Positions 28,297 through 50,675 of a stretch of DNA of 64,000 nt are shown here, in pieces. The first letter of the stretch is position 1, and every line of letters begins with the position of its first letter. The notes under the pieces were generated by a model. It did no database searches and was not told the origin of the DNA. It saw only the letters and a program-made list of their open reading frames with translations. A program made the translations under genes and the position numbers. Where the stretch lies: the NCBI GenBank assembly GCA_016186955.1, contig JACPKP010000009.1:225595-289594 (forward strand), read 5' to 3'. The DNA is from Candidatus Daviesbacteria bacterium. GTDB taxonomy: Bacteria > Patescibacteriota > Microgenomatia > Daviesbacterales > UBA10151.

Positions 28297-29166
28297 TCAA
28301 CTAAACCCTCCATCCCAGACATATTTTTTTCTTGTTTCAGTAATCCTTTTTAATATTTTTAAAAATGTTAAAGGAAAGATAAAAAAGAATTTATACTTAG
28401 GATGTTGCCAAAGATACCGGTTGATACGGTAGCGCCAAAAAAAACTTTTTGGGGCATAATTTTTGACTAGATTAAACTTATCTTGATCCCACCCCTTTGC
28501 TTCTCTTGTACCGGTACTGTGGGGATATGTCATAGCATGGAATAGATTAATTCTGCAAAATTTAACAGTTGCTTTTGCCTGGATGCAATTAATTAAAAAT
28601 GAAGCATCCGCTAACCAGTCAAAAGCCGGGAATAATCCAATCTTTGATAATGCGTCTCTTCTGATGATATAACCCATGCCGCAGGCCCCATAATCAAAAA
28701 TGTCATAAATATTATGACCGTAATTTGAACCTGGTGGAACATAGACAATTTTTTTACTTTTGGCGCCTGCTATGGATACGGTACCACCACAAACCAGTAA
28801 ATCTATTTCAGGATTTTTTTCCATTACCAAGATAGCTTTCTCTAAAGCTTGAGGTAAAACAATATCATCATCGGCGAGGTGCTTAATATATCTCCCTTTT
28901 GCAAGAAGCAAACCTTTGTTAAATGCATGGGCAGATGTTAAATCTGGTTCCGATAGAAATATATCTATAATATCAGCATATTTTTTAACCACTTCGGGGG
29001 TATTATCTTCAGATGCCCCATCGATTATAATCAGTTCGTCTTGATTTTTGATTAGTGTTCTACACATTTTTAAAGTCTGTTCTAAAAATTCTGCCCTATT
29101 TTTTGTATTAAGGATGTAAGAAACTCTTTGAGTGGAGGATTTATCAAAGCTGGAATATTTTTTCAT
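28297..29166 (-). CDS. GT2 family glycosyltransferase
   Basis: VSYILNTKNRAEFLEQTLKMC...ELIIIDGASEDNT...LADDD. It is the last gene of the long minus-strand operon. Confidence 0.7.
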   Translation of the reverse strand: MKKYSSFDKSSTQRVSYILNTKNRAEFLEQTLKMCRTLIKNQDELIIIDGASEDNTPEVVKKYADIIDIFLSEPDLTSAHAFNKGLLLAKGRYIKHLADDDIVLPQALEKAILVMEKNPEIDLLVCGGTVSIAGAKSKKIVYVPPGSNYGHNIYDIFDYGACGMGYIIRRDALSKIGLFPAFDWLADASFLINCIQAKATVKFCRINLFHAMTYPHSTGTREAKGWDQDKFNLVKNYAPKSFFWRYRINRYLWQHPKYKFFFIFPLTFLKILKRITETRKKYVWDGGFS

Positions 29167-29873
29167 AAAATTTTTACCGCCCTAGCATATCTTTTGGGTG
29201 TACCTATGTCAATTACCTTACTTTTGACTACAAATCCGTAACAGTTTTGTCTAATAATATTTGAAAAAAAATCTTTTTCAAGTGAAAAAACATTTTTTGA
29301 TGGCATTTTCAGAAAAATATCCCTGTTCATAAAATAAGCTCCTGCATTTATGAAACCCCCTGAATCAATATGAGGTTTTTCATTGAAACTTTTTATCCTT
29401 TTAGAACGGGAAATTATAACATGACCTCCTTCGCTAAGTTTTTCTGAATGCGATAATGCGATAGAAAGTAGCGCTCTGCGAGTTAAATGAAATTCCAAAA
29501 AATTGTTCAAATCAATCCGGCAAATTGAATCCCCATTGAGTACCAAAAAGTTTTGGCTTTTCAGTAGAAACTCCGCTTTTTTTAAAGCACCGCCTGTTCC
29601 CAAAGGATAATCTTCTTCGGAGAACTCTACAGTTACGTATTTTGGTAAATTAAACGGATATTTTTTGATTTGATCTTTTAAATATCCTACTGAAAGAATG
29701 ATCCTTTGCAAACCCGCTTTGGTTAAGCCATTAATAATTAAATCCAGCATTGTACGGTTGCCGATTTCAAGCAGAGCTTTTGGTTTGTTGCCTGCAACTG
29801 ATTTTATTCTTGTACCCAAACCACCACATAAAATTACGGCATCAATAAATTTAAGCTCATTTTTGGGGTACAT
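29163..29873 (-). CDS. hddC: Sugar-1-phosphate nucleotidyltransferase, HddC-like (D-glycero-alpha-D-manno-heptose 1-phosphate guanylyltransferase)
   Basis: AVILCGGLGTRIKSVAGNKPKALLEIGNRTMLD (GxGxR NTP-transferase motif), short at 236 aa, and translationally coupled to the HddA-like kinase. Confidence 0.6.
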   Translation of the reverse strand: MYPKNELKFIDAVILCGGLGTRIKSVAGNKPKALLEIGNRTMLDLIINGLTKAGLQRIILSVGYLKDQIKKYPFNLPKYVTVEFSEEDYPLGTGGALKKAEFLLKSQNFLVLNGDSICRIDLNNFLEFHLTRRALLSIALSHSEKLSEGGHVIISRSKRIKSFNEKPHIDSGGFINAGAYFMNRDIFLKMPSKNVFSLEKDFFSNIIRQNCYGFVVKSKVIDIGTPKRYARAVKIL

Positions 29874-30862
29874 TAATCAGAAATATTATATATGATGCTT
29901 GAACCTGTTTTTTCAAATGCAAAAGGGACATGCAATAACTTATTAAATTTTCTTAAAAACTTTTTTTGCATTGAGGGTTCCACAAAGAAAACGATAAACC
30001 CACCACTGCCTGCTCCGAGTAGTTTACCCCCCAACGCACCAGCGCTGATGCCCTCACTGTAAATCTCATCAATTAACTGGTTACTTATATTAGAAGCCAG
30101 GCTTTTTTTAATTATCCAGTTTTCGTGTAGTAGTTTGCCTAAGGTTTGTGCAGAAAAATTAGTGCCGGTTAACTTTTCGTAAGCTTTGGCTGTAATTTTT
30201 GAAAGAGCATGAAGTTCATTAAATTTGTTTGGCGTATTTTTAATAAGTTGTGCTGAAATGTCCGAAGCTCTTCTCTGGAATCCGGTAAAGAACAAAAGTA
30301 TATATTTCTCAAGAGCTTGTATTCGCGACCTGGATATTGCTAAGGGTTCAACGATAATCTTTCCATTTTTTTGAAATAAAATTCTATTTAAGCCTCCGTG
30401 TGCAGCAATGGTTTGGTCCTGTGAACCTACATTTTCCTTAATTTTATTCTGTTCAATTTCTATGGCGTCTCTTGCCAGTTGTTGTTTTGAAACAGATTTT
30501 CCGAGTAAAGCGTATAAGGAATTTAAAAAACCGACTGTAAAGGATGAGCTGGATCCTAAACCTGACATTGCCGGCAAGTCACTGGTATGAACCATCTCAA
30601 TCCCGGAGTTAATATTTAAGAAGTTAAGCGTTTCTTTTACTGCTGGATGTCTGATCTGGTTTATGGACAAAGTTGTTTCCCTATGGGTATATCGGATCCT
30701 GTATTTATATGGGAAAAAAGGAGGGAGATAACGGGTAACAATATAACAATATTTATTGATTGAAGTGCTGATGACAGATCCACCAAATTTACGATACCAT
30801 ATTGGATAATCAGTTCCTCCCCCAAACAGGGAAATCCGGAATGGTGTTCTGGATATTACCAT
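29873..30862 (-). CDS. hddA: GHMP-family sugar kinase, HddA-like (D-glycero-alpha-D-manno-heptose 7-phosphate kinase)
   Basis: MVISRTPFRISLFGGGTDYPIWYRKFGGSVISTSINKYCYIV...DLPAMSGLGSSSSFTVGFLNSLYALLGK...GSQDQTIAAHGGLN lines up with HddA from Aneurinibacillus/Campylobacter (MIITKTPLRVSFVGGGTD...PSGTGLGSSSAF...GKQDQY). Confidence 0.75.
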   Translation of the reverse strand: MVISRTPFRISLFGGGTDYPIWYRKFGGSVISTSINKYCYIVTRYLPPFFPYKYRIRYTHRETTLSINQIRHPAVKETLNFLNINSGIEMVHTSDLPAMSGLGSSSSFTVGFLNSLYALLGKSVSKQQLARDAIEIEQNKIKENVGSQDQTIAAHGGLNRILFQKNGKIIVEPLAISRSRIQALEKYILLFFTGFQRRASDISAQLIKNTPNKFNELHALSKITAKAYEKLTGTNFSAQTLGKLLHENWIIKKSLASNISNQLIDEIYSEGISAGALGGKLLGAGSGGFIVFFVEPSMQKKFLRKFNKLLHVPFAFEKTGSSIIYNISD

Positions 30863-30871
30863 AAAGATTGT

Positions 30872-31855
30872 TTAAACAAATCTTTTTGCATAAAAGACAT
30901 TATATTTTTTGTTTATAACACTACGTTTTTTCAAAAACCAGTCAATCGTTTCTTTGATCCCTTCCTGTAAACTTACTTTAGGATTATAACCAATAGATTG
31001 TGCCCTTTGGATATCCATAATCCTCATCCTATCTCCGCTTTTTTTTGATTTATCCCAAATTACTTTAGGAGGTTTTTCAATACTTTCGCAAATTGTGCTC
31101 ACCAGCTCTTTTATTGTGACGCCGGTCCCGCTTCCTAAGTTTAAAGCGCTCCCATCAGCATGTTTCATTGCTAAAATCATCCCTTCAGCAACATCCCTTG
31201 AGAAAACAAAATCCCGTATTTCGGATCCGTCCCCCCAAACAGTAAGAGGATTTTCGCCGTCTAGGACCCTTCTGATTAGGGAGGGTACGACCATAGCGTT
31301 TTTAGGATCAAAATTATCATAAGGCCCGTAAGTGTTAGCCGGCCTGACTATTGTTGTTTTGTTCCAGCCAAACTCTATTTTATATGCTTCAACCTGCAAT
31401 TCCCCAACTCTTTTTGCCCATCCGCCAAACCAATCCTTATGGGAGGGGAATGTATGCCATACATCGTCCTCATGAAAAATTTTAGCAGGGCCATAGACTC
31501 CGACAGAGCTTGTGTAAAGATACCTTTTTACTCCACTGATCCGTGCTGCCTCCATCATATTAGTGTTGAACAAAACTCCTGGTACGAAGATACTTGCAAC
31601 TTTTTTTGTTGCGATTCCGGCAGATACTTTAATTCCTGCCAAATGAAAAACATAATCTATGCCGCGGCACGCTTTAATGCAATTATCATATGAAGTAAGA
31701 TTTAGTTTCTTAAACTCTACGTCTTTTGGCAAATCCTTATTCCGTTCCATTGAGACAACCCGGACTTTTGCACCCATTTTGTGAAGAATTTCTACAAGCT
31801 GCATTCCGATCATCCCAGTCCCGCCAGTAATAAGAATTTTTTTATTTTTATACAT
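30872..31855 (-). CDS. NAD-dependent epimerase/dehydratase (extended SDR; candidate GDP-heptose/hexose modifying enzyme)
   Basis: KKILITGGTGMIGMQLVEIL and a YGPAK-type YxxxK block (LYTSSVGVYGPAK). Confidence 0.65.
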   Translation of the reverse strand: MYKNKKILITGGTGMIGMQLVEILHKMGAKVRVVSMERNKDLPKDVEFKKLNLTSYDNCIKACRGIDYVFHLAGIKVSAGIATKKVASIFVPGVLFNTNMMEAARISGVKRYLYTSSVGVYGPAKIFHEDDVWHTFPSHKDWFGGWAKRVGELQVEAYKIEFGWNKTTIVRPANTYGPYDNFDPKNAMVVPSLIRRVLDGENPLTVWGDGSEIRDFVFSRDVAEGMILAMKHADGSALNLGSGTGVTIKELVSTICESIEKPPKVIWDKSKKSGDRMRIMDIQRAQSIGYNPKVSLQEGIKETIDWFLKKRSVINKKYNVFYAKRFV

Positions 31856-31863
31856 GTCTTTTC

Positions 31864-32535
31864 CTAGATTGAATTATTAAATAATTTGTCAAATACTGCA
31901 ACCCCGCGTAGTTGATTAATGCTTGTAATAATTTCATCTGCTTCTGTCAAAAACTCCTGACCCATAGTAGAAGAAACTGCAATACAGTATGCTCCAGCTT
32001 TTTTTGCAGACTTTATTCCCAAGGGTGCGTTTTCTATCACTAAACATTTTTTGATATCTACCGACAATAACTTTGCAGCTTTAAGATAAGGATCCGGGAA
32101 TGGTTTTCCTCTTTTGACTTGGTCACCGGTGATGATAACTTTAAATTTCTTTAAAAAATTTTCAGGTAGTGTTGAGTGTAACCTGTTGTAAAGACCGGCA
32201 GTAACTATGGCAAATGGAATATTTTTTGCGTGTAATAAATTTATTATACTTTTAACGCCCCGATAGAGTTGGAATTTATTGTTCTTCAAATATAGATCCT
32301 CCTTATTTTTAATAATATCTTCTACCAGCGACTTGTCTAACCCGGCCTTTTGGCAATATTTTTTTGCTAATTTTTCTAATTTCATCCCTTCGTAAGGAAA
32401 GTACTCTTGTGCGGAGATAGAAATATTGTATTTTTTCAGCGATTTCAACCAGGCTTTATAATTATCTTCCATTGTTTGGGCCAAAACACCGTCAAAATCA
32501 AACAAAACAGCCTGATATTTTTTTGATGGAATCAT
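31864..32535 (-). CDS. HAD-superfamily hydrolase, subfamily IA (beta-phosphoglucomutase/phosphatase-like)
   Basis: Motif I LFDFDGVLAQT, with later KPFPDPY-type and E-N-A motif III regions. Confidence 0.65.
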   Translation of the reverse strand: MIPSKKYQAVLFDFDGVLAQTMEDNYKAWLKSLKKYNISISAQEYFPYEGMKLEKLAKKYCQKAGLDKSLVEDIIKNKEDLYLKNNKFQLYRGVKSIINLLHAKNIPFAIVTAGLYNRLHSTLPENFLKKFKVIITGDQVKRGKPFPDPYLKAAKLLSVDIKKCLVIENAPLGIKSAKKAGAYCIAVSSTMGQEFLTEADEIITSINQLRGVAVFDKLFNNSI

Positions 32536-33045
32536 TTATTTGAAGAATTCAAGCGTATCACGCATCCACTGCGGAAGATATTTGTAATGAGGGCTTGTCA
32601 CAAGCTTACCGTCAATTACTGATGGAGCATCAATGTAATTAGCGCCCGCATTTTCTATGTCATCCCGAATACTGTAATATCCGGAGACTTTTTTCCCCTT
32701 GACAATTTTAGCCGATATTAACATTTGTGACCCGTGACAAATAGCGGCAATAACCTTTCCTGCTTTTGCAAATTTTGATATAAAATCAATCACAGTTTTT
32801 TCCTGGCGCAGATATTCCATACATTTTGCTCCTCCAGGAATGATTAGTAAATCATAGTCAGAAACCCTCAGATTGGTTGTATCTTTAGTAGGGACAACTT
32901 TAGTTCCGTTTACGCCGAGAACTATCTCTTTATTTTTAATAGCAACATCAACCTTGAACCCTGCTTCCTGAAGTCTGTAATAGGGGTATATATATTCATG
33001 GTCTTGCACATATTTGCCTGTTATAATTAAAGCCCTTTTTTTCAT
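32536..33045 (-). CDS. DJ-1/PfpI family protein (class I glutamine amidotransferase-like fold)
   Basis: A 169-aa protein with the nucleophile-elbow Cys in AAICHGSQML and the overall PfpI length and pattern. Confidence 0.6.
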   Translation of the reverse strand: MKKRALIITGKYVQDHEYIYPYYRLQEAGFKVDVAIKNKEIVLGVNGTKVVPTKDTTNLRVSDYDLLIIPGGAKCMEYLRQEKTVIDFISKFAKAGKVIAAICHGSQMLISAKIVKGKKVSGYYSIRDDIENAGANYIDAPSVIDGKLVTSPHYKYLPQWMRDTLEFFK

Positions 33046-33806
33046 ACAGCCTTTTTAATAAGCAAAGATTCATTTTCAGCAGAAGGGTTTAAGCTATGGT
33101 GTTTTTTCAAATCCCCAAATGAAATTATATCACCAGTGTCCAGGAGGCATGTTTGAGATCCATCGGTTATATTTCCTGTCAGAAGCACCAAAATATCGGG
33201 TTTTGATTGTTTAGTATGATTTATCAAGTGGTTGCTATCGGAAAACTTGACCAAGCTTAAAATACAGTCACCGAACTGTTTCTCTACCCCGTAACGTTTT
33301 TTACTATTATTAAATGATTGATATAATTTATTGTCAAGCTTTGAATAAAATTTTTCATCCTCATATCCTCTTCCTCGTCTTCCATATTTGTCGCTAAACC
33401 TGATTAAGTCCCTTTTGTTGGTCGGTGTTTCTGTTTCTATCACCAACAACCCATTGTTTGAGGTAACTGTTGTAGAATGAAATACTCCTTTGTTAATAAG
33501 CAATCCATGGCAAAGATTAAGTTTGTGGTTTCCACTGAGCGTTTCAACCCTAGCTTCGCCGGATAAAATAATAATAGAGGTTTTTTTATTAGGATGTGCG
33601 TGCATTGAAGTTTGGAAGTTGGGTTTTAAATAAAGCAGCCATACGGCGGTTTGGTTGTTGGAATAAATCAGATATTCATATCCCCATGGCTTTCTTATTA
33701 CCACATTTGAGTAGTCAAAAAAATTATCCAGGAGGTAATCAGGGTTTATTTTAATACTTGACATCTGTCTGATATCTTCGTCGGTTTGATCAATTTTTTT
33801 TACCAT
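33042..33806 (-). CDS. Metal-binding cupin domain protein (possible sugar isomerase/epimerase)
   Basis: Cupin motif 1 with HxH...E (TSMHAHPNKKTSIIILSGEARVE) and a second beta-rich C-terminal half (possible bicupin). Confidence 0.45.
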   Translation of the reverse strand: MVKKIDQTDEDIRQMSSIKINPDYLLDNFFDYSNVVIRKPWGYEYLIYSNNQTAVWLLYLKPNFQTSMHAHPNKKTSIIILSGEARVETLSGNHKLNLCHGLLINKGVFHSTTVTSNNGLLVIETETPTNKRDLIRFSDKYGRRGRGYEDEKFYSKLDNKLYQSFNNSKKRYGVEKQFGDCILSLVKFSDSNHLINHTKQSKPDILVLLTGNITDGSQTCLLDTGDIISFGDLKKHHSLNPSAENESLLIKKAV

Positions 33807-34746
33807 TGGAATTTATAATATATTCTACTGTCTTTACTATTTTACCTGTTGTAGGGGGGAGGTTGTCCAGATGGGGGGCAAATCCGGCAGACCGTTCTTC
33901 CAGTCCGAGCGTTTTGATTGGTTTAAATTTGTTGCCTGATCCGGTGAGTTTTTGGATTATGTCAAAAGCTAGACATTTCAAAGCTCCATTTTCAAAATCA
34001 CCGTCCAGTATCAGTCCTCCAAACCTGCTTTGATTGAGTGAAGCAATAATTTTTTTATTAATTACAAATGGCTTGAGCCATAGCAGATGTATAAGGTTAC
34101 AAACAATGCCATTTCCCTCTAAGGTTTTAACAGCTTCAATGGCGTTGATTCTAGTTGAAGAAATCGCAAATATAGTAACATCAGCTTTAGGTTTAATAAT
34201 ATCTTTCATGTCATAATCTATAGGGAAACTTTTTTTATGCTCACTGATGTACATCGGGTCATCGTGTTCCATAAAATAATTCCAAACCTGTTGGTATTCG
34301 TTGGGTGTCATGGGGGCACAAACAACAATTCCGGGCATCCTAATAAATATACTGTGGTGGCTACCGGATGCCACAGGCCCGATAGCTCCGTCCATGGCTA
34401 TTGAGCGCACAAAAATAGGGCAGGGAATTCCCCACATATCCTTTGATTTTGCTGCGTAATTGACAATGCTTGCAGCGTTGTACCACTGAAAACCCTGGTA
34501 TCTAACTATATAAATTGGCCTTCTGCCCGCTAAGGCCGCCCCTACAGCTATACCTCCGCCGGATACATCAGCCATTGATAATTCAACAAGGCCTTCTTTT
34601 TCACTTAAGTGAGGGATTGTACCACCGACCCAGCCAACAGCTGTTAGACATTGGCCTAATGCCAAACCGTTATTTTTTAACAGGTGATTTCTGGTTATTT
34701 GGCTTATTTTTTCTGCAACAGTCATTTTTTGAGTTGTTTCTTCCAT
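33790..34746 (-). CDS. Thiamine-diphosphate-dependent 2-oxoacid dehydrogenase E1 beta-subunit-like protein
   Basis: LSMADVSGGGIAVGAALAGRRPIYIV...NYAAKSKDMWGIPCPIFVRSIAMDGAIGPVASGSHHS...PGIVVCAPMTPNEYQQV aligns block-for-block with the PDH/BCKDH E1-beta Pyr domain. Confidence 0.65.
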   Translation of the reverse strand: MEETTQKMTVAEKISQITRNHLLKNNGLALGQCLTAVGWVGGTIPHLSEKEGLVELSMADVSGGGIAVGAALAGRRPIYIVRYQGFQWYNAASIVNYAAKSKDMWGIPCPIFVRSIAMDGAIGPVASGSHHSIFIRMPGIVVCAPMTPNEYQQVWNYFMEHDDPMYISEHKKSFPIDYDMKDIIKPKADVTIFAISSTRINAIEAVKTLEGNGIVCNLIHLLWLKPFVINKKIIASLNQSRFGGLILDGDFENGALKCLAFDIIQKLTGSGNKFKPIKTLGLEERSAGFAPHLDNLPPTTGKIVKTVEYIINSNGKKN

Positions 34747-35606
34747 AATTTATCAATAAATTCTTTCGTTTCCTGTTCGATCTTTAAAGCCTGTTTTTCT
34801 AACCCCAAATTTTTAAGATCTTCTTTGACTATTTTAAATCTGTCCCATTCTGGTTCGCTATCTTGTCCGGTGCCATTGTGCCAAAGCACCCTTGTTGTAT
34901 GGATATTTATAAAGCTAGGTAAATTTTTAGCAAGCTTTTTGACATGATGCATAATAAGCCAGGGATCATCGGTGATTTCTACCGCATCCATTCCAAATGC
35001 TTTTGCAACATTAACCATACTCCAGTTTCTTCTAACTGCGACTTTGGTTAAAATTGAAAGTCCATTATCAGTGCAAACAAACAAAACAGGAAGTTTTTTT
35101 GAAGCAGCATAGCCCATTGAACTTATCACATAGTCTTCTTCTGCCGAAGCATCCCCCATAATTGCCAAGACTTTTTGTTTTGACCCCAATGCATATCCTA
35201 CTGCGATTGGAATTTGGTCTCCCATAAGCCCGCTATGGCCAAACATGCCAATCTTCGGGGAATGAATTGATGCAGACCCACCCATGCCTTTGGCGATGCC
35301 GGAAGGCTTGTGCAGTAGTTCGTCAATTAAAGGGACAATTTCTCCCCCGAAAGCTAAATAAATATCATGGCATCTGTGTTGGGCAAAAATATGCGGTTTT
35401 TTATAAGCTATTGATATTGCTGATGAAACAGATTCTTCACCAACTGATAAATAAATCGGCATTTTAATATAACCTTTATCAAAGGCATCTTTGGTATTGA
35501 ATTCGAAATTGCGCGAGATGCACATTTTTTTAAACATCTCCAAAGACTCTTTCTTAGTAAAATGTTTTGAGATATTTTTGATTTCACCGAAGCTTTTTGA
35601 ACGCAT
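34722..35606 (-). CDS. Thiamine-diphosphate-dependent 2-oxoacid dehydrogenase E1 alpha-subunit-like protein (TPP-binding)
   Basis: KGMGGSASIHSPKIGMFGHSGLMGDQIPIAVGYALGSK...LAIMGDASAEEDYVISSMGYAASKKLPVLFVCTDNGLSI aligns with E1-alpha (KGKGGSMHMY...GGNGIVGAQVPLGAGIALA...YGDGAANQG...LPCIFICENNRYGMGT). It is overlapped and coupled with the beta subunit. Confidence 0.65.
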   Translation of the reverse strand: MRSKSFGEIKNISKHFTKKESLEMFKKMCISRNFEFNTKDAFDKGYIKMPIYLSVGEESVSSAISIAYKKPHIFAQHRCHDIYLAFGGEIVPLIDELLHKPSGIAKGMGGSASIHSPKIGMFGHSGLMGDQIPIAVGYALGSKQKVLAIMGDASAEEDYVISSMGYAASKKLPVLFVCTDNGLSILTKVAVRRNWSMVNVAKAFGMDAVEITDDPWLIMHHVKKLAKNLPSFINIHTTRVLWHNGTGQDSEPEWDRFKIVKEDLKNLGLEKQALKIEQETKEFIDKLWKKQLKK

Positions 35607-37001: not shown

Positions 37002-37005
37002 TGGA

Positions 37006-39336: not shown

Positions 39337-39344
39337 AATTTATC

Positions 39345-39391
39345 TCGATAAAACCCCGACCGTTAAGTCGTAGGTAGATTCATTTTATCGA
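39345..39391 (-). promoter_or_regulatory. Nested inverted repeat (possible intra-operon RNA stem-loop / processing or attenuation site)
   Basis: A perfect 9-bp IR tcgataaaa ... ttttatcga (39345-39353 / 39383-39391) encloses an inner GC hairpin cgac-cgttaa-gtcg (39357-39370). It spans the MTase stop codon and the 43-bp gap before the Gln-kinase-like gene. Confidence 0.2.
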
Positions 39392-45147: not shown

Positions 45148-45944
45148 AATATTGACCTGAGTGTTCCACCATCAATACCGATACAGGCGCCGGTAATGAA
45201 TTTTGCATCATCAGAGGCCAAAAATGCAACAGCATTGGCAACATCTTCTTCCTGCCCAAGTGTATTTAAAGGAACCTTTGATTTTTCTTCTTTCTCCATA
45301 ATGCCCGCAGCCTCTTTTATTGCAACTTTTAACTCAGCAGCCCGTTTTTGAACTCTCTCTCTCCAATCCTGGCCGGTAAGCGAACTGGGACAAACAGAGT
45401 TTACTAAAATTCCATCAACTGCGAAAAGATTGGATAAGTGTTTGCTTAAGTTAAGAGAGGCGGCTTTTGAGGCAGAATAATGAGGGTTAAATTTTCCCGG
45501 TTGACGGGCAGGGACAGTTGAAATGTTGATTATTCTGGGGGATTTTGATTTCTGAAGATAGGGAAGCGCTGCTTTGGTGAAATAAACCATTGACATAAAG
45601 TTTAATTCAAAGGAATCGAAGTAGTTTTTGGGTGATAAATCCAAGAAACTTCCGAACTTTTCAACCCCCCCCAAATTATTAACCAAAATATCAAGTTGCC
45701 CAACCTCTTTACCTAAAGCTTTAAAAAGTTTCTTTACTGTCGGAAGTTTTTTCCCGTCAACCTGATAAAAATAAACCTTAACGCCTCTTTTTTGGATTTC
45801 ATCTGCCGTCTTTTTCAGCCTGTTTAAGTTTCTTGCACAAAGAACCACATCTGCGCCTTTTTGTGCAAGCATCAAAGCAATAGTTTTTCCTAAACCGGTG
45901 CTACTGCCTGTTACTAATGCAACTCTTCCTTTAAGGTTATCCAT
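45144..45944 (-). CDS. Classical short-chain dehydrogenase/reductase (FabG-like SDR)
   Basis: RVALVTGSSTGLGKTIALMLAQKGADVVLCARN (TGxxxGxG), NNLG, and the S...YxxxK triad region (YSASKAA). Confidence 0.7.
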   Translation of the reverse strand: MDNLKGRVALVTGSSTGLGKTIALMLAQKGADVVLCARNLNRLKKTADEIQKRGVKVYFYQVDGKKLPTVKKLFKALGKEVGQLDILVNNLGGVEKFGSFLDLSPKNYFDSFELNFMSMVYFTKAALPYLQKSKSPRIINISTVPARQPGKFNPHYSASKAASLNLSKHLSNLFAVDGILVNSVCPSSLTGQDWRERVQKRAAELKVAIKEAAGIMEKEEKSKVPLNTLGQEEDVANAVAFLASDDAKFITGACIGIDGGTLRSIF

Positions 45945-46876
45945 TAAATGTTTGAGAATTGGTTTCTTTTAATGATTTTATATCCTTTAATAAGTTCAGC
46001 AATGCCTTCTCCTAGGGATATTTTAGCCCTGAAACCTGTTTTTTCAATCTTTTCATTGGATACAATGTAATTTCTTTTATCAGGATCTCTCCCTATTTTA
46101 GCTTCAATAAAATAAAAATCAGGCATTTGTCTTTTAACCTCCTCACAAAGCTCCAATTTGGAGATATTTGCATCAGACATGCCTAAGTTGTAAGGCTCAT
46201 TTTTCATTTTTTCAAAATTGTTTATGCAATGGATAAAACCTTTGGCAATATCCCGGATATGGATAAAATTCCTTTTAAAGTTTGCTTCAAATAAAACAAT
46301 AAATCGGTCGTTTACAGCCCTATACACAAAATCATTTACCAGCAAATCCAATCTCATCCTGGGGCTAATCCCAAAAACTGTTGCCAGGCGGAGAACTATG
46401 GCATTGCCTTTATTTAAGATTGCTTTTTCTGCCGATACCTTGGTTTTTCCGTAAATTGATATAGGTTTAAGGGGTGAGTTTTCTGTGCAATACATCTCTT
46501 TTTTACCGACACCGTAACCGCTGTTGGTATTAGGGTAAATAATTTTCTGCGCTTTTTTTCTTAATTTTAAAATTAATTTTATCGCGTCCAGGTTAATGGA
46601 TTTTGCCTCCGCTGGAAATTTATCGCAGATTGGTGCACCAACTAAAGCTGCGAGGGGAATGATAATATCTTGGTTTTTAATCATTTTATGCATCAGTTTC
46701 TCATTTCTAACATCTCCACGGATAATAGTTAGGTTGGGGTTATTACAACAGTCCAAAAGTGAAGATTGGTTGTACATAAAGTTATCAACAACTGTAACTT
46801 CATGCCCATCATTTAATAGGGTAGGGGTGAGTATTGAACCTATATATCCGGCTCCGCCGGTAACCAATATTTTCAT
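45944..46876 (-). CDS. NAD-dependent nucleotide-sugar epimerase/reductase (extended SDR)
   Basis: MKILVTGGAGYIGSILTPTLL and YGKTKVSAEK (YxxxK). Confidence 0.65.
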   Translation of the reverse strand: MKILVTGGAGYIGSILTPTLLNDGHEVTVVDNFMYNQSSLLDCCNNPNLTIIRGDVRNEKLMHKMIKNQDIIIPLAALVGAPICDKFPAEAKSINLDAIKLILKLRKKAQKIIYPNTNSGYGVGKKEMYCTENSPLKPISIYGKTKVSAEKAILNKGNAIVLRLATVFGISPRMRLDLLVNDFVYRAVNDRFIVLFEANFKRNFIHIRDIAKGFIHCINNFEKMKNEPYNLGMSDANISKLELCEEVKRQMPDFYFIEAKIGRDPDKRNYIVSNEKIEKTGFRAKISLGEGIAELIKGYKIIKRNQFSNI

Positions 46877-46932: not shown

Positions 46933-47718
46933 CTAAATTCCTAAAAATTGAACCAAGTTGTTATGCAAAATTGGGTTAGAAGCCAGTATTGACTCATCAC
47001 TGATTGTCCATTGTTCATTTCTTAAGTTTGTCACAATTCCCCCTGCTTCCCTGATAATTACCACCGCTGCAGCCATATCCCAAGGTTCCAGGCTGGTTGC
47101 CATATATGCATGCATCTTACCCTCTGCTGTAAGAGCAAGTGGAACAGAGGCACAACCTGAAGAGAAGTTGCAGGTGATGCCATCAGGGCTCAGCAACCTT
47201 TCTAGATATTTTATATCCCCGGTTCTATTTAATTTTCCAAAATCGATTCCCATGAGTGTCCTGTTGAGGTCTATGTTTTGTGCTACCTGTATTGGTTCAT
47301 TGTTTTTGCTTGCGCCACCTTTAGCAAAAGCCACATAAAGATCATTTCTTTTAGGTGCATAGATTACACCCAAAACTGGATTTAATCCTTCCGCAAGGGA
47401 TAAACAGACGCTGAAATGGTCGTTGATGCCGGAGGTATATAGAAGGGTACCATCCAGCGGATCTACTACCCAATTAAGCTTTGATCCCATATCCCGGTCA
47501 ATGTTTTCTTCAGAGAGGATATTATGCGAAGGAAACCGTTTGATTATCGCCTCCCTGATTAAGTTGTCACTTAAATCATCAACCTCAGTTTTAAAATTGG
47601 TACGAAGTTTCCATTCCAGTCTGTGCATTTTTTCGAAATTATCCATTAACAACTCTCCTGCCTTAAGGCTTAAGTCAACAGCAAAATCTTTATATAAAAT
47701 TAACTCAGATTCAGTCAT
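46933..47718 (-). CDS. Inositol monophosphatase / CysQ-family phosphatase (candidate 3'-phosphonucleotide phosphatase)
   Basis: The family motifs are SEEN (metal-binding EE), WVVDPLDGT and WDMAAAVVIIREAGG. Confidence 0.65.
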   Translation of the reverse strand: MTESELILYKDFAVDLSLKAGELLMDNFEKMHRLEWKLRTNFKTEVDDLSDNLIREAIIKRFPSHNILSEENIDRDMGSKLNWVVDPLDGTLLYTSGINDHFSVCLSLAEGLNPVLGVIYAPKRNDLYVAFAKGGASKNNEPIQVAQNIDLNRTLMGIDFGKLNRTGDIKYLERLLSPDGITCNFSSGCASVPLALTAEGKMHAYMATSLEPWDMAAAVVIIREAGGIVTNLRNEQWTISDESILASNPILHNNLVQFLGI

Positions 47719-48880
47719 AGGATTTATTTACAACTTGAGTTATATACAAAATGTCTTTTTTTGTTAAGGATTCATTATTCGGCAGGAAGAATCCACAAGA
47801 GTGAACCTTATCAGAAATTGGATGGTTGAATTTGCCATACCCTTCAAACCAAAAAGGATGCAGGCCTAAATTTCCCGCAGAAAAAAGTCTGGTTTCTATA
47901 TTATTTTTAACCAGTTGGGTGACAATTCTTTTTCTGTGTGCAACATTTTTGGCAATTGCGCCAAAAGAGATACTGCAGGGTTTTGATAAATTATTCCATT
48001 TTTGAAAATCAACTGTTTTTAAATTTTGCGCATATACCATATGGTTCTCCATTCTTACTGTCGAAACCTCATCCGCTTTTTTCATCATCTCCAAACCTAA
48101 AAAAGCATTGAGGTCGGTTGAGCGCAAATTAAACCCCGGAACAAAAAATGTAAAAGGCTTATGGAATTCATCTATCCCGTATTTTTGCATAAATGCGGAT
48201 TCTGTTTCACTGTCCAAATCTTTACCCCAACCATGACTTCTAAGCATTAACAACAGGTCGTAGAGCTTTTTACTATTCGTATTGACCATACCTCCTTCGA
48301 TTGTTGAAAGCTGATGCCCGAAATAAAAGGAAAATGATGACATATCAGAAAATGATCCTACCTTTTTGCCGTCATATTCAGCCCCTAATGCAGCGCAAGC
48401 GTCGTCCAAAAGCAGGAAACCGTATTTTTCCTGCAGGCTTTTGATTTGATAAATGTTACTTGGGATACCCAAAACCTGGATCATTACTACCGCAGCCGGG
48501 TCATGTTTTTTCAGTAACTCTTCCAGGTGACCAACATCCAACCCGAAATTATTTTTATCCGCACCGCACATTATCGGTTCAAAACCGAATTGGATAAATG
48601 GGCTGATGGTGGTAACCCAGCCAACGCTCGGGACAATTACTTTTTTGTTTTTCAAATCCCCGCCCAACAGCGCAGTATATGCCATAAGTAAGTTAGCTGA
48701 TGAGCCGGAATTGCAAAAAACCGCATATTTTGTACCAATCCACTGCGCCCATTGTTTTTCAAATTCAACAGTTAACTCTCCTTTAGTATACTGAACAGTT
48801 TCTTTTAGCCAGCCAATTAAATTTGTGATATCCTGGGGGTTAATAATTTTTTCCGCAAGTTTATATTGCATGCTTGACAA
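47711..48880 (-). CDS. DegT-family PLP/PMP-dependent enzyme with His replacing the catalytic Lys (ColD/E1-type NDP-4-keto-6-deoxyhexose 3-dehydratase-like)
   Basis: The DegT N-terminal block is YAVFCNSGSSANLL. The active-site block SFSFYFGHQLSTIEGG has His where aminotransferases have Lys (compare ColD SFYSHHIATMEGG). It is adjacent to a Gmd-like gene. Confidence 0.6.
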   Translation of the reverse strand: MSSMQYKLAEKIINPQDITNLIGWLKETVQYTKGELTVEFEKQWAQWIGTKYAVFCNSGSSANLLMAYTALLGGDLKNKKVIVPSVGWVTTISPFIQFGFEPIMCGADKNNFGLDVGHLEELLKKHDPAAVVMIQVLGIPSNIYQIKSLQEKYGFLLLDDACAALGAEYDGKKVGSFSDMSSFSFYFGHQLSTIEGGMVNTNSKKLYDLLLMLRSHGWGKDLDSETESAFMQKYGIDEFHKPFTFFVPGFNLRSTDLNAFLGLEMMKKADEVSTVRMENHMVYAQNLKTVDFQKWNNLSKPCSISFGAIAKNVAHRKRIVTQLVKNNIETRLFSAGNLGLHPFWFEGYGKFNHPISDKVHSCGFFLPNNESLTKKDILYITQVVNKSYD

Positions 48881-48930: not shown

Positions 48931-49728
48931 TTGAGCATGGTGGAAAAAATTACTGTTAACAATATCGCAAGTGTGGGAATTATTTATAGAGAGTCGGACC
49001 CAAAAAGTATTTTTATAGATATAAAAGATGGCGGGTATCCAATTAAGGCGTTTAGGTGGATGCACTGCCCTATTGGCGGCAACTGGATTGGCAAAAATGC
49101 ACTTGCTGATGCTAATCCCTTAGCAACTTTCCGCCGGGAACTTCATGAGGAACTATCGTTTGAAAAAGAAAGGATTTCCACCGGAGAAATGAAGCAGCTG
49201 GGTATTGACTGCGAACAACAATCCTACACTGTACCCAAAAAAGATGCAATACCAACAGAAAAAGATCACGAAAGCTTAAATTATCTAAAACTTATTTTTA
49301 CAAATGACGCTCAGCCTTTTGGAGACTTTAGGGTAACTGTCCCAAAATCAATATTTGATAAGGGTGTGCCAGATAATAAGCTAGGGGATACTGCGTCTTT
49401 ACTCCCCTACTATCTAGTGTCTGTTAAGGAAAATGACTGGCGGACACTTGAGTATCTGCATGAAAAATTCGGCAATCTTTCAGTAGAGTCCTTAGCTGTT
49501 ATTACCTCACTTGATGAGATAATCAGCACACCAAGATATACCTGTTGCGGACATGATAGGATTATGAAAGAATTTTTTACACAAATGGGTTGTGCCGGCG
49601 CCTGCCAATACCCGCTTCTTGAAGGCATTACCTGTGAGCCTATGGGAATGCCGTTTGACTCATATGATAAATACCTTGAATATTATGAGGTTTTGCGCCA
49701 CCCTTTTAGTAGTTCTCTTCGTGCATGA
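48931..49728 (+). CDS. Hypothetical protein with a degenerate Nudix-like box
   Basis: GKNALADANPLATFRRELHEELSF approximates Gx5Ex7REUxEExGU, with E to D, G to S and a one-residue insertion. Otherwise I cannot recognise it. Confidence 0.3.
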   Translation: MSMVEKITVNNIASVGIIYRESDPKSIFIDIKDGGYPIKAFRWMHCPIGGNWIGKNALADANPLATFRRELHEELSFEKERISTGEMKQLGIDCEQQSYTVPKKDAIPTEKDHESLNYLKLIFTNDAQPFGDFRVTVPKSIFDKGVPDNKLGDTASLLPYYLVSVKENDWRTLEYLHEKFGNLSVESLAVITSLDEIISTPRYTCCGHDRIMKEFFTQMGCAGACQYPLLEGITCEPMGMPFDSYDKYLEYYEVLRHPFSSSLRA

Positions 49729-50675
49729 TCCAGCAAAAACTGGACACTACTTTCAAAACTTATTTTTGGTTTCCAGCCTGTTGCCTTTTTAAATTTTAAG
49801 ATATTTGGAATTTGCAATGTGACATCAGAGGGCCTTAGTAAAGCAGGGTCTACTTTGGAGGGAATTTTACATTTTGCATATTTTTTAAGTAGGGTTAAAA
49901 ACTCCCCAACAGTTATGACAGTATTACCACCTATATTATAAACTTCCCCAAATTGACACCTTTGGGTTGCAACCCAATAAGCCTCCATTGCATCTCTGAC
50001 GTCAATTAAAGTTCGGACTGAGTTCAAGTTACCATGAACAAGCTCTGTTTGTACCCCAGCCTCGATTATTGCTACCTGTTTGGCAAAACTTGTGGCAAAT
50101 AAGTCTTCACGCCGGGGGTTAATATATGCAAACATTCTGGTACGGATGATTTTCATCCCGTAACTTCTGAAATATGTATAACCCAGCAGATCCTGGGCGA
50201 CTTTTGAGACAGCGTAGGGGTTTGACGGGTTAATCGGGCAGTCTTCTTTAATCGGGACATTTTTAGGGTCAACCTGCCCATAAACTTCTGATGTACTGCA
50301 AATTTGCAAAACAGGATCTAACTTAAGATGTCTGATTGCCTCCAGAAGGTTGGCAGTTCCTAAAATGTTGTTTTGCAGTACTGCAAGCGGGGTGAGAAAA
50401 GAGGTCCGGACATTTGCATGGGAGGCGAGATGGAAAATTACGTCAGGTTTAATCTTTTTTAAGGTTGTCAAAATGGATGAAAAATCATTTAAATCGCACT
50501 CATAAAGTTTTACTTTTTTAAAAATATCAGCCAGATTATTTGCAGAGGTTGTACTGTGCCACCTTGATATCCCGAAGACCTTCATGTGCGGGTGGTGATT
50601 TATAATGTATTCTGCTAGATAGCTGCCTCCAGACCCTGTAATGCCGGTAATAAATACTCTCTTGAAGTTACGCAT
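49683..50675 (-). CDS. gmd: GDP-mannose 4,6-dehydratase-like (Gmd family SDR)
   Basis: VFITGITGSGGSYLAEYIINHH matches the Gmd ITGVTGQDGSYLAEFLL block. The YxxxK region is YAVSKVAQDLL. The 3' end overlaps the convergent gene by 46 nt. Confidence 0.65.
   Translation of the reverse strand: MRNFKRVFITGITGSGGSYLAEYIINHHPHMKVFGISRWHSTTSANNLADIFKKVKLYECDLNDFSSILTTLKKIKPDVIFHLASHANVRTSFLTPLAVLQNNILGTANLLEAIRHLKLDPVLQICSTSEVYGQVDPKNVPIKEDCPINPSNPYAVSKVAQDLLGYTYFRSYGMKIIRTRMFAYINPRREDLFATSFAKQVAIIEAGVQTELVHGNLNSVRTLIDVRDAMEAYWVATQRCQFGEVYNIGGNTVITVGEFLTLLKKYAKCKIPSKVDPALLRPSDVTLQIPNILKFKKATGWKPKISFESSVQFLLDHARRELLKGWRKTS

What the first reader, a model, noticed from the sequence alone, without database searches (positions are those of the whole stretch)
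33790..35606. Stand-alone TPP-dependent E1 alpha/beta pair (no E2/E3) inside the glycan operon: possible two-carbon branched-chain sugar formation
Both subunits align block-for-block with 2-oxoacid dehydrogenase E1 alpha (TPP-binding GDG...N variant: MGDASAEEDY...VCTDNG) and E1 beta (Pyr domain). They are not transketolase N/C halves, which I considered. No lipoyl E2 or E3 is nearby. The genes are coupled to sugar enzymes on both sides. Stand-alone E1 alpha/beta pairs are known to transfer a TPP-bound hydroxyethyl or acetyl unit from pyruvate onto keto-sugar nucleotides, for example in aldgarose formation in aldgamycin biosynthesis. In a surface-glycan locus this would predict an unusual C-branched sugar.
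Basis: partly seen in the sequence, partly recalled or inferred. Interest (0 to 1): 0.6.

Follow-up and report, generated by a model that had tools for sequence, protein, structure and literature searches.

The report
Stand-alone thiamine enzyme in glycan operon
Two adjacent genes that look like the first component of pyruvate dehydrogenase are really a free-standing thiamine-dependent carbon-carbon bond enzyme, part of a widely shared but undescribed sugar-tailoring gene cassette that probably adds a short carbon branch to a deoxy-sugar of the cell surface.

Summary
On the minus strand, 34722-35606 encodes a 294-aa E1-alpha-like protein and 33790-34746 a 318-aa E1-beta-like protein. They sit in a 16-gene co-directional array inside a 64-kb glycan island of a Candidatus Daviesbacteria genome, with no E2 or E3.

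The pair is not housekeeping PDH or acetoin dehydrogenase. Its scores are far below the equivalog cut-offs, and it is about 30% identical or less to the ordinary plasmid-borne E1 proteins compared.

It defines a compact clade found in CPR bacteria, DPANN archaea, Nitrospira, Omnitrophota, SAR11 and others, always as an alpha/beta pair in sugar loci.

New findings:
- The pair belongs to a conserved module of cupin, TPP enzyme and DJ-1/PfpI, often with HAD, GHMP kinase and NTP-transferase genes.
- Fusions exist: cupin-E1alpha and E1alpha-E1beta.
- In half of the cupin-centred loci, an acetolactate-synthase-like (the YerE superfamily) single-chain TPP enzyme replaces the E1 pair.
- ColD-type 3-dehydratases and a 4,6-dehydratase, which make NDP-4-keto-3,6-dideoxy sugars, are frequent neighbours and occur in the window.

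Best reading (about 0.5): an E1-type analogue of YerE that adds a pyruvate-derived C2 branch to such a keto-sugar. The roles of the cupin and DJ-1 are unexplained. Relatedness to AlmD/AviB could not be tested.

The parts
34722..35606 (-). E1-alpha-like TPP-binding subunit (294 aa)
   Evidence: Pfam E1_dh 63 bits, TPP_enzyme_C 35 bits. TIGR03182 108.6 bits against a cut-off of 393.85. Best PDB match is human PDH E1 alpha, 98 bits with a profile. Identical to a Candidatus Daviesbacteria hypothetical protein.
33790..34746 (-). E1-beta-like Pyr-domain subunit (318 aa)
   Evidence: Transket_pyr 51 bits, Transketolase_C 27 bits. PRK09212 65 bits against a cut-off of 321. Found next to E1 alpha in 85 of 85 loci. 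Fused to alpha in some genomes.
33042..33806 (-). Bicupin with type-II PMI-like motifs (254 aa), module partner
   Evidence: PF01050 25.9 bits. Motifs KPWGxE, HxH and DLVRxxDxYGR are invariant. AF2 model pLDDT 93.7. Fused to E1 alpha in L020 and others. Accompanied by a TPP enzyme in 24 of 24 loci.
32536..33045 (-). DJ-1/PfpI family protein (169 aa), module partner
   Evidence: PF01965 164 bits. Invariant Cys103, Glu17 and His153. Co-occurs with the cupin in 28 of 29 loci and 23 of 24 loci.
31864..32535 (-). HAD-IA (beta-PGM-like) phosphatase or mutase
   Evidence: HAD_2 109 bits. PGMB-YQAB subfamily 114 bits. Present in 14 of 48 full loci.
30872..31855 (-). Extended SDR, GDP-L-fucose-synthase-like (candidate ketoreductase)
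   Evidence: NF047922 147 bits. Orthologues at 44-58% identity in about 24 loci, often directly after E1 beta.
29873..30862 (-). GHMP sugar kinase, HddA-like
   Evidence: NF049969 156.5 bits is the top hit. Present in 37 of 48 full loci. Fused to an NTP-transferase in DPANN loci.
29163..29873 (-). Sugar-1-phosphate nucleotidylyltransferase, HddC/ManC-like
   Evidence: NF049965 149.6 bits is the top hit.
28297..29166 (-). GT2 glycosyltransferase, last gene of the array
   Evidence: PF00535 66.5 bits.
47711..48880 (-). ColD-type PMP-dependent NDP-4-keto-6-deoxy-sugar 3-dehydratase
   Evidence: Top PDB match is ColD 2gms, 170 bits, with the catalytic Lys replaced by His (SFYFGHQLSTIEGG). A His-type homologue lies within 10 kb of the E1 pair in 29 of 81 loci.
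49683..50675 (-). NDP-hexose/heptose 4,6-dehydratase (GMD-like)
   Evidence: PF16363 229 bits. TIGR01472 146 bits. 70% identical to the equivalent gene in L021.
45944..46876 (-). Extended SDR that travels with the ColD-like gene (SDRb)
   Evidence: Epimerase 105 bits. Found in 37 of 81 loci, usually next to the ColD-like gene.

Best explanation
The two genes encode a free-standing alpha2beta2-type thiamine-diphosphate enzyme that works as a carboligase in nucleotide-sugar tailoring. It is not the first component of an oxidative 2-oxoacid dehydrogenase complex.

Proposed pathway in this operon (all steps inferred):
1. A ketose phosphate is turned into an NDP-sugar, probably a GDP-hexose or GDP-heptose. 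The candidate enzymes are the PMI-like cupin, the HddA-like GHMP kinase, the HAD phosphatase and the HddC-like nucleotidyltransferase.
2. The GMD-like 4,6-dehydratase and the ColD-type 3-dehydratase encoded upstream convert it to an NDP-4-keto-3,6-dideoxy sugar.
3. The E1 pair decarboxylates an alpha-keto acid, most simply pyruvate. It adds the TPP-bound hydroxyethyl carbanion to the sugar carbonyl and so creates a C-acetyl branch on a tertiary carbinol.
4. The fucose-synthase-like SDR reduces the branch.
5. The GT2 transfers the yersiniose-like branched sugar to the glycan.

Shown by sequence and context: E1-type fold, absence of E2/E3, membership of a distinct clade, the conserved cupin/TPP-enzyme/DJ-1 module, interchange with ALS-like (YerE-superfamily) enzymes, and association with ColD-type dehydratases.

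Inferred: donor, acceptor, branch position, nucleotide identity, and what the cupin and DJ-1 do. Possible cupin roles are epimerase or keto-isomerase on the 4-keto sugar. Possible DJ-1 roles are hydrolase or dicarbonyl damage control.
For: - E1-type domains with an intact TPP/Mg motif and conserved catalytic residues.
- No E2 or E3 in the 64-kb window, and none among the recurrent neighbour clusters of 81 loci.
- Scores far below the PDH equivalog cut-offs. Identity to plasmid-borne E1 alpha is about 30% or less.
- The alpha and beta genes are paired in 85 of 85 loci.
- In a cupin-centred metagenome sample, 24 of 24 loci with 3 kb or more of flank carry a TPP enzyme. Twelve have the E1 pair and 12 have an ALS-like single-chain enzyme in the same position; DJ-1 is present in 23 of 24.
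- ColD-type (Lys to His) 3-dehydratases are in the window, in 22 of 48 complete loci, and directly flanking the module in many metagenome loci. A GMD-like dehydratase is in the window and in 16 of 48 complete loci.
- An orthologous SDR lies immediately after E1 beta, even where the cupin and kinase are absent.
- Precedents from the literature: YerE adds pyruvate to CDP-4-keto-3,6-dideoxyglucose and YerF then reduces it (PMC9306805). E1-type ('alphaKADH2') pairs branch keto-sugars in aldgamycin, kibdelomycin, avilamycin and paulomycin (PMC12247030, PMC4753412). A GDP-heptose 4,6-dehydratase, C3-dehydratase, epimerase and reductase chain is known in Campylobacter jejuni (PMC10440746).
Against: - No sequence comparison with any characterised branching E1 pair could be made.
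- The near-obligate cupin and DJ-1 partners, and the cupin-E1alpha fusion, have no role in known branching pathways.
- Operon order (E1 first, kinase and nucleotidyltransferase last) and the dedicated anomeric kinase fit a pre-activation role equally well.
- In five loci, a second and more PDH-like E1 pair is the one interleaved with the ColD-like gene. The window-type pair may therefore do something else there.
- In some loci the gene just upstream of E1 alpha is a sugar-acid dehydratase, an IPMS-like synthase or a class-I aminotransferase. This hints at donors other than pyruvate.
- In the window, the ColD-like gene is 12 kb from the E1 pair.
Confidence: 0.5

Rival explanations
1. Chain building before activation. 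The E1 pair acts like a split transketolase or DXS, joining a C2 (or longer) unit to an aldose phosphate to make an unusual ketose phosphate. The PMI-like cupin isomerises this to the aldose phosphate. The GHMP kinase, HAD phosphatase and nucleotidyltransferase then activate it. This would parallel the heptose pathway (GmhA/HddA/GmhB/HddC) and my recollection of the lincosamide octose pathway.
For: - Gene order in the operon is E1a-E1b-cupin-DJ1-HAD-SDR-GHMP-NTP-GT2.
- A cupin-E1alpha fusion exists.
- The cupin carries type-II PMI motifs.
- A dedicated HddA-like kinase is present in 37 of 48 loci, and NTP-CBS-GHMP fusions exist.
- The window lacks GmhA.
- A transaldolase and a SIS isomerase lie next to an ALS-type module in L088.
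Against: - Five of 48 complete loci have none of cupin, DJ-1, HAD, kinase or nucleotidyltransferase.
- ALS-type modules lack the GHMP kinase (0 of 25).
- A pyruvate donor would give a 1-deoxy-ketose, which cannot be isomerised to an aldose.
- The PMI metal-ligand motif is altered: HxHxxKK replaces HxHRxEH.
- The strong ColD association fits an NDP-keto-sugar substrate better.
Confidence: 0.2
2. Same carboligase role but with a longer, functionalised alpha-keto acid donor. Candidates are a 2-keto-3-deoxy sugar acid or 2-oxoglutarate. The product would be a long polyhydroxyalkyl branch or a higher-carbon sugar (caryophyllose or erwiniose logic). Alternatively, the pair simply decarboxylates such an acid to a 2-deoxy-aldose that the GHMP kinase then activates. 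The cupin, DJ-1, HAD and SDR would supply the donor.
For: - Genes immediately upstream of E1 alpha in loci without the cupin/DJ-1 pair make or interconvert 2-oxoacids. These are a gluconate/galactonate/arabinonate-dehydratase-like enolase-superfamily protein, an IPMS-like synthase and a class-I aminotransferase.
- In the proteobacterial cassette, DJ1-SDR-cupin-dehydratase-HAD-E1a-E1b, the dehydratase sits inside the module.
- Donor-supplying aldolases adjacent to YerE-type enzymes are documented (PMC9306805).
- The cupin model resembles 2-oxoacid-binding bicupins only at fold level.
Against: - The window has no sugar-acid dehydratase, IPMS-like gene or aminotransferase of these kinds.
- Characterised E1-type branching enzymes are reported to be restricted to pyruvate (PMC12247030).
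- Orthologues at 45-68% identity would be expected to share one donor, yet the upstream genes differ between lineages.
- NDP-2-deoxy-pentoses made this way are unknown.
Confidence: 0.15
3. C-C bond cleavage instead of formation. The TPP enzyme would split an alpha-hydroxyketone or 1,2-diketone sugar intermediate, and the cupin would isomerise the product. The models are Ao:DCPIP oxidoreductase on acetoin and, from my own knowledge of inositol catabolism, IolD on a cyclic dione followed by the cupin isomerase IolB.
For: - Both TPP superfamilies found in the module contain diketone- or acyloin-cleaving members: Ao:DCPIP oxidoreductase and cyclohexane-1,2-dione hydrolase (review PMC12247030).
- The IolD (TPP) plus IolB (cupin isomerase) pairing is a precedent recalled from established knowledge. 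It was not tested here.
- An inositol-monophosphatase-family gene and a GFO_IDH_MocA gene are in the window.
Against: - No inosose dehydratase or inositol-phosphate synthase was seen.
- Cleavage products would not obviously need a GHMP kinase, a nucleotidyltransferase and a glycosyltransferase.
- The ColD and SDR associations are left unexplained.
Confidence: 0.06
4. An ordinary pyruvate or acetoin dehydrogenase E1 that happens to lie in a glycan island and works with E2 and E3 encoded elsewhere.
For: The best-scoring named families are PDH E1 alpha and beta. Source databases name some homologues acetoin:DCPIP oxidoreductase.
Against: - Scores are about a quarter (alpha) and a fifth (beta) of the equivalog cut-offs.
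- Identity to ordinary plasmid-borne E1 alpha proteins is about 30% or less.
- No E2 or E3 in the window or among the recurrent neighbour clusters of 81 loci.
- The pair is always in sugar loci, across phyla that include DPANN archaea.
- It is interchangeable with an ALS-like enzyme that cannot serve an E2.
Confidence: 0.02

Closest known systems
E1-type ('alphaKADH2') sugar-branching pairs of actinomycete antibiotics: AlmDI/DII (aldgamycin), AviB1/B2 (avilamycin), Pau11/12 (paulomycin), KbDH-alpha/beta (kibdelomycin)
   Same: A stand-alone E1 alpha/beta pair without E2 or E3, embedded among deoxysugar genes. TPP-dependent transfer of a pyruvate-derived C2 unit to an NDP-keto-sugar is the documented role (PMC12247030, PMC4753412).
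   Different: - The known examples are in secondary-metabolite clusters of actinomycetes. This pair is in surface-glycan loci of CPR, DPANN, Nitrospira, SAR11 and other lineages.
- The alpha subunit is short (294 aa).
- It has near-obligate cupin and DJ-1 partners, and cupin-alpha and alpha-beta fusions.
- Sequence relatedness to the characterised pairs could not be tested.
YerE/YerF (yersiniose A) and YerE-like enzymes ErwE and MygE of LPS branched sugars
   Same: The predicted logic matches: a 4,6-dehydratase plus a PMP-dependent 3-dehydratase make an NDP-4-keto-3,6-dideoxy sugar, a TPP enzyme adds an acyl branch, and a reductase follows (PMC9306805). An ALS-like enzyme of the YerE superfamily occupies the same module slot in half of the sister loci.
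   Different: YerE is a single-chain ALS-like flavoprotein, not an E1 heterotetramer. I know of no report of cupin or DJ-1 partners for YerE. The nucleotide here is probably GDP and not CDP.
Pyruvate dehydrogenase and acetoin dehydrogenase E1 (PdhA/B, AcoA/B)
   Same: Same fold and same TPP-binding motif. These are the best-scoring named families.
   Different: No E2 or E3. Scores of 108.6 against 393.85 and 65 against 321 bits relative to the equivalog cut-offs. Identity about 30% or less to the plasmid-borne E1 alpha proteins compared. Exclusive glycan context.
GDP-3,6-dideoxy-heptose pathway of Campylobacter jejuni HS:5
   Same: HddA/HddC-like activation, a GMD-like 4,6-dehydratase, a ColD-like C3-dehydratase, a cupin and fucose-synthase-like reductases (PMC10440746).
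   Different: The Campylobacter pathway has no TPP enzyme and no DJ-1. By my recollection, its epimerase is an RmlC-type cupin, not a PMI-like bicupin.

Membership tests
Heteromeric 2-oxoacid dehydrogenase E1 superfamily (alpha + beta) | Alpha subunit with an E1_dh domain and a TPP-diphosphate/Mg motif (GDG...NN) | tested here: met
   PF00676 63 bits. The GDA-x27-DN variant is present, with G151, D152, D180 and N181 invariant in 30 homologues.
Heteromeric 2-oxoacid dehydrogenase E1 superfamily (alpha + beta) | Beta subunit with a pyrimidine-binding domain plus a transketolase-C-like domain, encoded next to alpha | tested here: met
   PF02779 and PF02780. Adjacent in 85 of 85 loci. Conserved acidic residue and His in the beta alignment.
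Housekeeping PDH or acetoin dehydrogenase complex E1 | Lipoyl-bearing E2 and E3 encoded with or near E1 | tested here: not met
   None among 50 scanned window ORFs. None among the recurrent neighbour clusters of 81 loci.
Housekeeping PDH or acetoin dehydrogenase complex E1 | Reaches the curated equivalog score of PDH E1 alpha/beta models | tested here: not met
   108.6 against 393.85 bits (TIGR03182). 65 against 321 bits (PRK09212).
alphaKADH2 sugar-branching E1 pairs (AlmD/AviB/Pau11-12/KbDH) | Stand-alone E1 pair located within a deoxysugar biosynthesis cluster | tested here: met
   Operon of sugar kinase, nucleotidyltransferase, SDRs and GT2. ColD-like and GMD-like genes lie upstream.
alphaKADH2 sugar-branching E1 pairs (AlmD/AviB/Pau11-12/KbDH) | Phylogenetic clustering with characterised members | not testable with these tools
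   No characterised sequence could be retrieved. No solved structure other than PDH, BCKDH and benzoylformate decarboxylase matched. A literature search gave names only.
alphaKADH2 sugar-branching E1 pairs (AlmD/AviB/Pau11-12/KbDH) | Pyruvate-dependent carboligation onto an NDP-keto-sugar | not testable with these tools
   This needs an enzyme assay.
YerE-type (ALS-like) branching enzymes | Single chain with TPP_enzyme_N, _M and _C domains | tested here: not met
   The window enzyme is a two-subunit E1 type. ALS-like enzymes of 594-604 aa occupy the same slot in sister loci.
Transketolase / DXS | Transketolase_N or DXP_synthase_N TPP-binding domain; best match to TK or DXS models | tested here: not met
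   The alpha subunit matches E1_dh. TK and DXS models score 15-20 bits, against 65-109 bits for PDH E1 models.

The most novel reading that the evidence does not exclude
The cupin / TPP-enzyme / DJ-1(PfpI) triad is an undescribed, horizontally mobile glycan-tailoring module. Its thiamine enzyme can be either an E1 heterotetramer or an ALS-like single chain. Its chemistry would go beyond the known acetyl branching. Examples would be a coupled epimerisation or keto-isomerisation, carboligation and hydrolysis sequence, or use of non-pyruvate donors. The products would be a new class of C-branched or chain-extended deoxy-heptoses or deoxy-hexoses on the surfaces of CPR bacteria, DPANN archaea, SAR11 and Nitrospira.
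Probability: 0.3. Interest if true: 0.8.

Novelty: new variant of a known kind. Interest (0 to 1): 0.6.

Why it matters
C-branched sugars in bacterial surface glycans have so far been attributed to YerE-like single-chain enzymes. E1-type branching enzymes are known only from actinomycete antibiotic clusters.

This locus points to an E1-type clade dedicated to surface-glycan synthesis. It is spread across very distant and mostly uncultivated lineages: CPR, DPANN, SAR11, Nitrospira and Omnitrophota. It comes with two invariant partner proteins of unknown role.

If confirmed, three things follow:
- It would predict unusual branched deoxy-sugars on cells whose envelopes are almost uncharacterised.
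- It would correct annotations as 'pyruvate/acetoin dehydrogenase E1', which some databases already give to homologues, in metabolic reconstructions of small genomes.
- It would add a compact, possibly fusion-stabilised carboligase to the biocatalysis toolbox for tertiary alcohols.

Tried and rejected
- I first suspected a Campylobacter capsule locus, because of the MeOPN-like and HddA/HddC-like genes. Rejected: the alpha subunit is identical to a Candidatus Daviesbacteria protein.
- Phosphonopyruvate decarboxylase and phosphonate synthesis were considered. They seem unlikely: no PEP mutase was noticed among the neighbour clusters annotated, and the fold is E1, not Ppd.
- I tried to obtain AlmD, AviB or KbDH sequences for a phylogeny. 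Literature searches gave names only. The plasmid tblastn returned only ordinary E1 alpha proteins at about 30% identity or less.
It was redone with database homologues.
- The idea that the cupin replaces GmhA was weakened, because the two co-occur in several loci.
- My first regular expression for the ColD His motif was wrong. It was corrected.
- The MeOPN-like module next to the pair is not co-conserved with it. It was set aside as a separate feature.


Full report
**Observation**

The finding's coordinates correspond to two overlapping minus-strand ORFs: 34722-35606 (294 aa) and 33790-34746 (318 aa).
- The first matches Pfam E1_dh (E=2.3e-17) and the TPP-binding C-terminal domain.
- The second matches Transket_pyr (E=1.8e-13) and Transketolase_C.
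- Against NCBIfam, the best named models are PDH E1 alpha (108.6 bits, cut-off 393.85) and PDH E1 beta (65 bits, cut-off 321). Transketolase and DXS models score 15-20 bits.
- The closest solved structures are human PDH E1 alpha and bacterial or archaeal E1 beta.

The description 'E1 alpha/beta pair, not split transketolase' is therefore correct.

**Setting in the window**

The alpha protein is identical to a hypothetical protein of a Candidatus Daviesbacteria (CPR) genome.

The whole 64-kb window is a glycan island. It encodes PMT-type, GT4 and GT2 glycosyltransferases, a flippase, a UDP-sugar dehydrogenase, many extended SDRs, methyltransferases and an acyltransferase. Fifty of the 62 ORFs of at least 150 aa were scanned, and none is a lipoyl E2 or an E3.

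The pair sits in a 16-gene co-directional array (43930 to 28297) with gaps of 51 nt or less. Downstream of the pair, in order, lie:
- a 254-aa cupin;
- a DJ-1/PfpI protein;
- a beta-PGM-like HAD hydrolase;
- a GDP-fucose-synthase-like SDR;
- an HddA-like GHMP kinase;
- an HddC/ManC-like nucleotidyltransferase;
- a GT2.

Upstream lies a six-gene module resembling the Campylobacter phosphoramidate-cofactor pathway.

**A distinct, widespread clade**

- A word-indexed search found about 2,200 relatives, the best 120 at 56-100% identity.
- An exhaustive HMMER search of 1.84 billion cluster representatives found only 57 representatives at E<=1e-30. Below that, scores merge into general E1 alpha proteins at 30-35% identity.
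- Plasmid-borne E1 alpha proteins are about 30% identical or less.
- A scan of one genome per species returned 80 loci. They come from Saccharibacteria, Sungii-, Lipton- and Yanofskybacteria, Nano-, Woese- and Pacearchaeota, a Methanosarcinales MAG, Nitrospira, Omnitrophota, Elusimicrobia, Planctomycetes, Acidobacteriota, Bdellovibrionota, Verrucomicrobia, Magnetospirillum relatives, Colwellia and Pelagibacter.
- E1 beta accompanies E1 alpha in 85 of 85 loci.

**Conserved neighbours**

Among 48 loci with at least 8 kb on both sides, the counts are:

| Neighbour | Loci (of 48) |
|---|---|
| GHMP kinase | 37 |
| B12-binding radical SAM | 36 |
| Cupin | 29 |
| DJ-1 | 28 (cupin and DJ-1 together in 28 of 29) |
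| Nucleotidyltransferase | 21 |
| GMD-like 4,6-dehydratase | 16 |
| HAD | 14 |

- The phosphoramidate-like genes are not co-conserved (0-4 of 85 loci).
- Gene-order maps show a core of E1a-E1b-cupin-DJ1-HAD in several permutations.
- Three fusions tie partners together. A cupin-E1alpha protein of 544 aa occurs in Omnitrophota and others. An E1alpha-E1beta protein of about 630 aa also occurs. DPANN loci carry an NTP-transferase-CBS-GHMP protein of 709 aa.
- An orthologue of the window's SDR (44-58% identity) often follows E1 beta directly, even where the cupin, DJ-1 and kinase are absent.

**The keto-sugar link**

The DegT-family gene that recurs near the pair is not an aminotransferase.
- In the window copy (47711-48880), the catalytic lysine is replaced by histidine (SFYFGHQLSTIEGG).
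- Its best solved relative is ColD, the PMP-dependent GDP-4-keto-6-deoxymannose 3-dehydratase (170 bits). CDP-4-keto-6-deoxyglucose 3-dehydrase is next.
- A second His-type copy lies at 16567-17802.
- His-type copies occur within 10 kb of the pair in 29 of 81 loci, and in 22 of 48 complete loci. In many metagenome loci they directly flank the module.
- A GMD-like 4,6-dehydratase (49683-50675) is 70% identical to its counterpart in an Omnitrophota locus.

Together these enzymes would make an NDP-4-keto-3,6-dideoxy sugar. That is the acceptor class used by YerE in yersiniose synthesis (PMC9306805). The same chain of reactions is documented for GDP-heptoses in Campylobacter (PMC10440746).

**Interchange with an ALS-like enzyme**

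Starting from the cupin and not the E1 pair, a metagenome scan returned 80 loci.
- Of the 24 with at least 3 kb on both sides, all carry a TPP enzyme next to the cupin. Twelve have the E1 pair. Twelve have a 594-604-aa single-chain acetolactate-synthase-like enzyme, the superfamily of YerE.
- DJ-1 is present in 23 of the 24.

The two enzyme types are not homologous in architecture, and the ALS-like enzymes do not work with an E2. What they share is decarboxylation of a 2-oxoacid followed by carboligation or cleavage at a carbonyl. This is the strongest argument that the window pair is a carboligase-type enzyme. It also shows that the real conserved unit is a cupin/TPP-enzyme/DJ-1 triad.

**Interpretation**

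The most economical model has these steps:
1. Formation of an NDP-hexose or NDP-heptose, by the cupin, kinase, HAD and nucleotidyltransferase.
2. 4,6- and 3-dehydration.
3. TPP-dependent addition of a pyruvate-derived C2 unit to the keto group by the E1 pair.
4. Reduction by the SDR.
5. Transfer by the GT2.

E1-type branching enzymes are established in actinomycete antibiotic pathways. One, KbDH-alpha/beta, has been characterised in vitro (PMC12247030; PMC4753412). I put this model at about 0.5.

**What does not fit**

- The cupin has type-II PMI motifs, but its metal-ligand motif is altered. It models confidently as a bicupin (pLDDT 93.7) but has only generic structural neighbours.
- DJ-1 has an invariant Cys/Glu/His set.
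- Neither protein has a role in known branching pathways, yet they are near-obligate partners.
- Operon order and the dedicated anomeric kinase also fit a pre-activation, transketolase- or DXS-like chain-building role (rival, 0.2).
- In lineages lacking the cupin/DJ-1 pair, the gene just upstream of E1 alpha is a sugar-acid dehydratase, an IPMS-like synthase or a class-I aminotransferase. This suggests other 2-oxoacid donors (rival, 0.15).
- Five loci also carry a second, much more PDH-like stand-alone E1 pair (250 and 302-318 bits). It overlaps or brackets the ColD-like gene. In those loci the two pairs must have different jobs.

**Novelty**

Full-text searches found no description of E1-type TPP enzymes in surface-glycan loci, and none of a cupin/TPP/DJ-1 module. 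The 2025 review attributes LPS branched sugars to YerE-like enzymes and E1-type branching to secondary metabolites (PMC12247030).

I therefore rate this a new variant of a known kind. The fold and the likely chemistry are known. The clade, its partners, its fusions, its phylogenetic spread and its interchange with ALS-like enzymes are new. The exact reaction awaits enzymology.

Noticed in passing
window 35658-41987 (-), plus 46933-47718 (-): A six-gene module in a CPR genome resembles the Campylobacter O-methyl-phosphoramidate cofactor pathway. It comprises a gamma-glutamyl-CDP-amidate-hydrolase-like GATase fused to a nucleotidyltransferase; a 776-aa PRK05849-family protein (986 bits), which I recall as the Cj1418 L-glutamine kinase family; a SAM methyltransferase; an APS-kinase-like protein; and a 447-aa sulfotransferase-fold protein that could be the transferase using a PAPS-like donor. 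An IMPase/CysQ-like phosphatase lies nearby. The module is not co-conserved with the E1 pair.
   Followed up: partly
L021:1775-5000 and L071:3517-6688 (also L009, L057, L031): A second, much more PDH-like stand-alone E1 pair (alpha about 322 aa, 250 bits; beta about 350 aa, 302-318 bits) coexists with the window-type pair. It overlaps or brackets the ColD-like 3-dehydratase gene, so these loci encode two distinct TPP steps.
   Followed up: partly
L087:1343-4422, L088:1701-4480 and 22 further metagenome loci (L092-L164): The same cupin and DJ-1/PfpI genes flank a 594-604-aa acetolactate-synthase-like TPP enzyme in place of the E1 pair. This is non-orthologous displacement within a conserved triad. 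L088 also carries a transaldolase and a SIS isomerase nearby.
   Followed up: yes
L006-L085 (e.g. L018:14432-16327, L075:8358-9902, L065:1290-3284): B12-binding radical SAM enzymes, up to three per locus, accompany the E1 pair in 36 of 48 complete loci, often with PhyH-type dioxygenases. None is present in the window. They may C-methylate or otherwise tailor the sugar or its branch.
   Followed up: no
window 16567-17802 (+): A second DegT-family gene in the window also has histidine in place of the catalytic lysine (SFYGSHIIT). The island therefore encodes two putative 3-dehydratases.
   Followed up: partly
L052:13890-16019 (-), L045:9974-11869 (+), L020:5894-7528 (+): Three gene fusions occur within the cassette: NTP-transferase-CBS-GHMP kinase (which, by my recollection, resembles the Bacteroides Fkp architecture), E1alpha-E1beta, and cupin-E1alpha.
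   Followed up: yes
window 43925-45147 (+): A P-loop AAA_33 kinase (191 aa) and a second HAD hydrolase (217 aa) lie on the opposite strand inside the array. The kinase family recurs divergently upstream of E1 alpha in DPANN loci (L035, L038, L044, L052). Their function is unknown.
   Followed up: no
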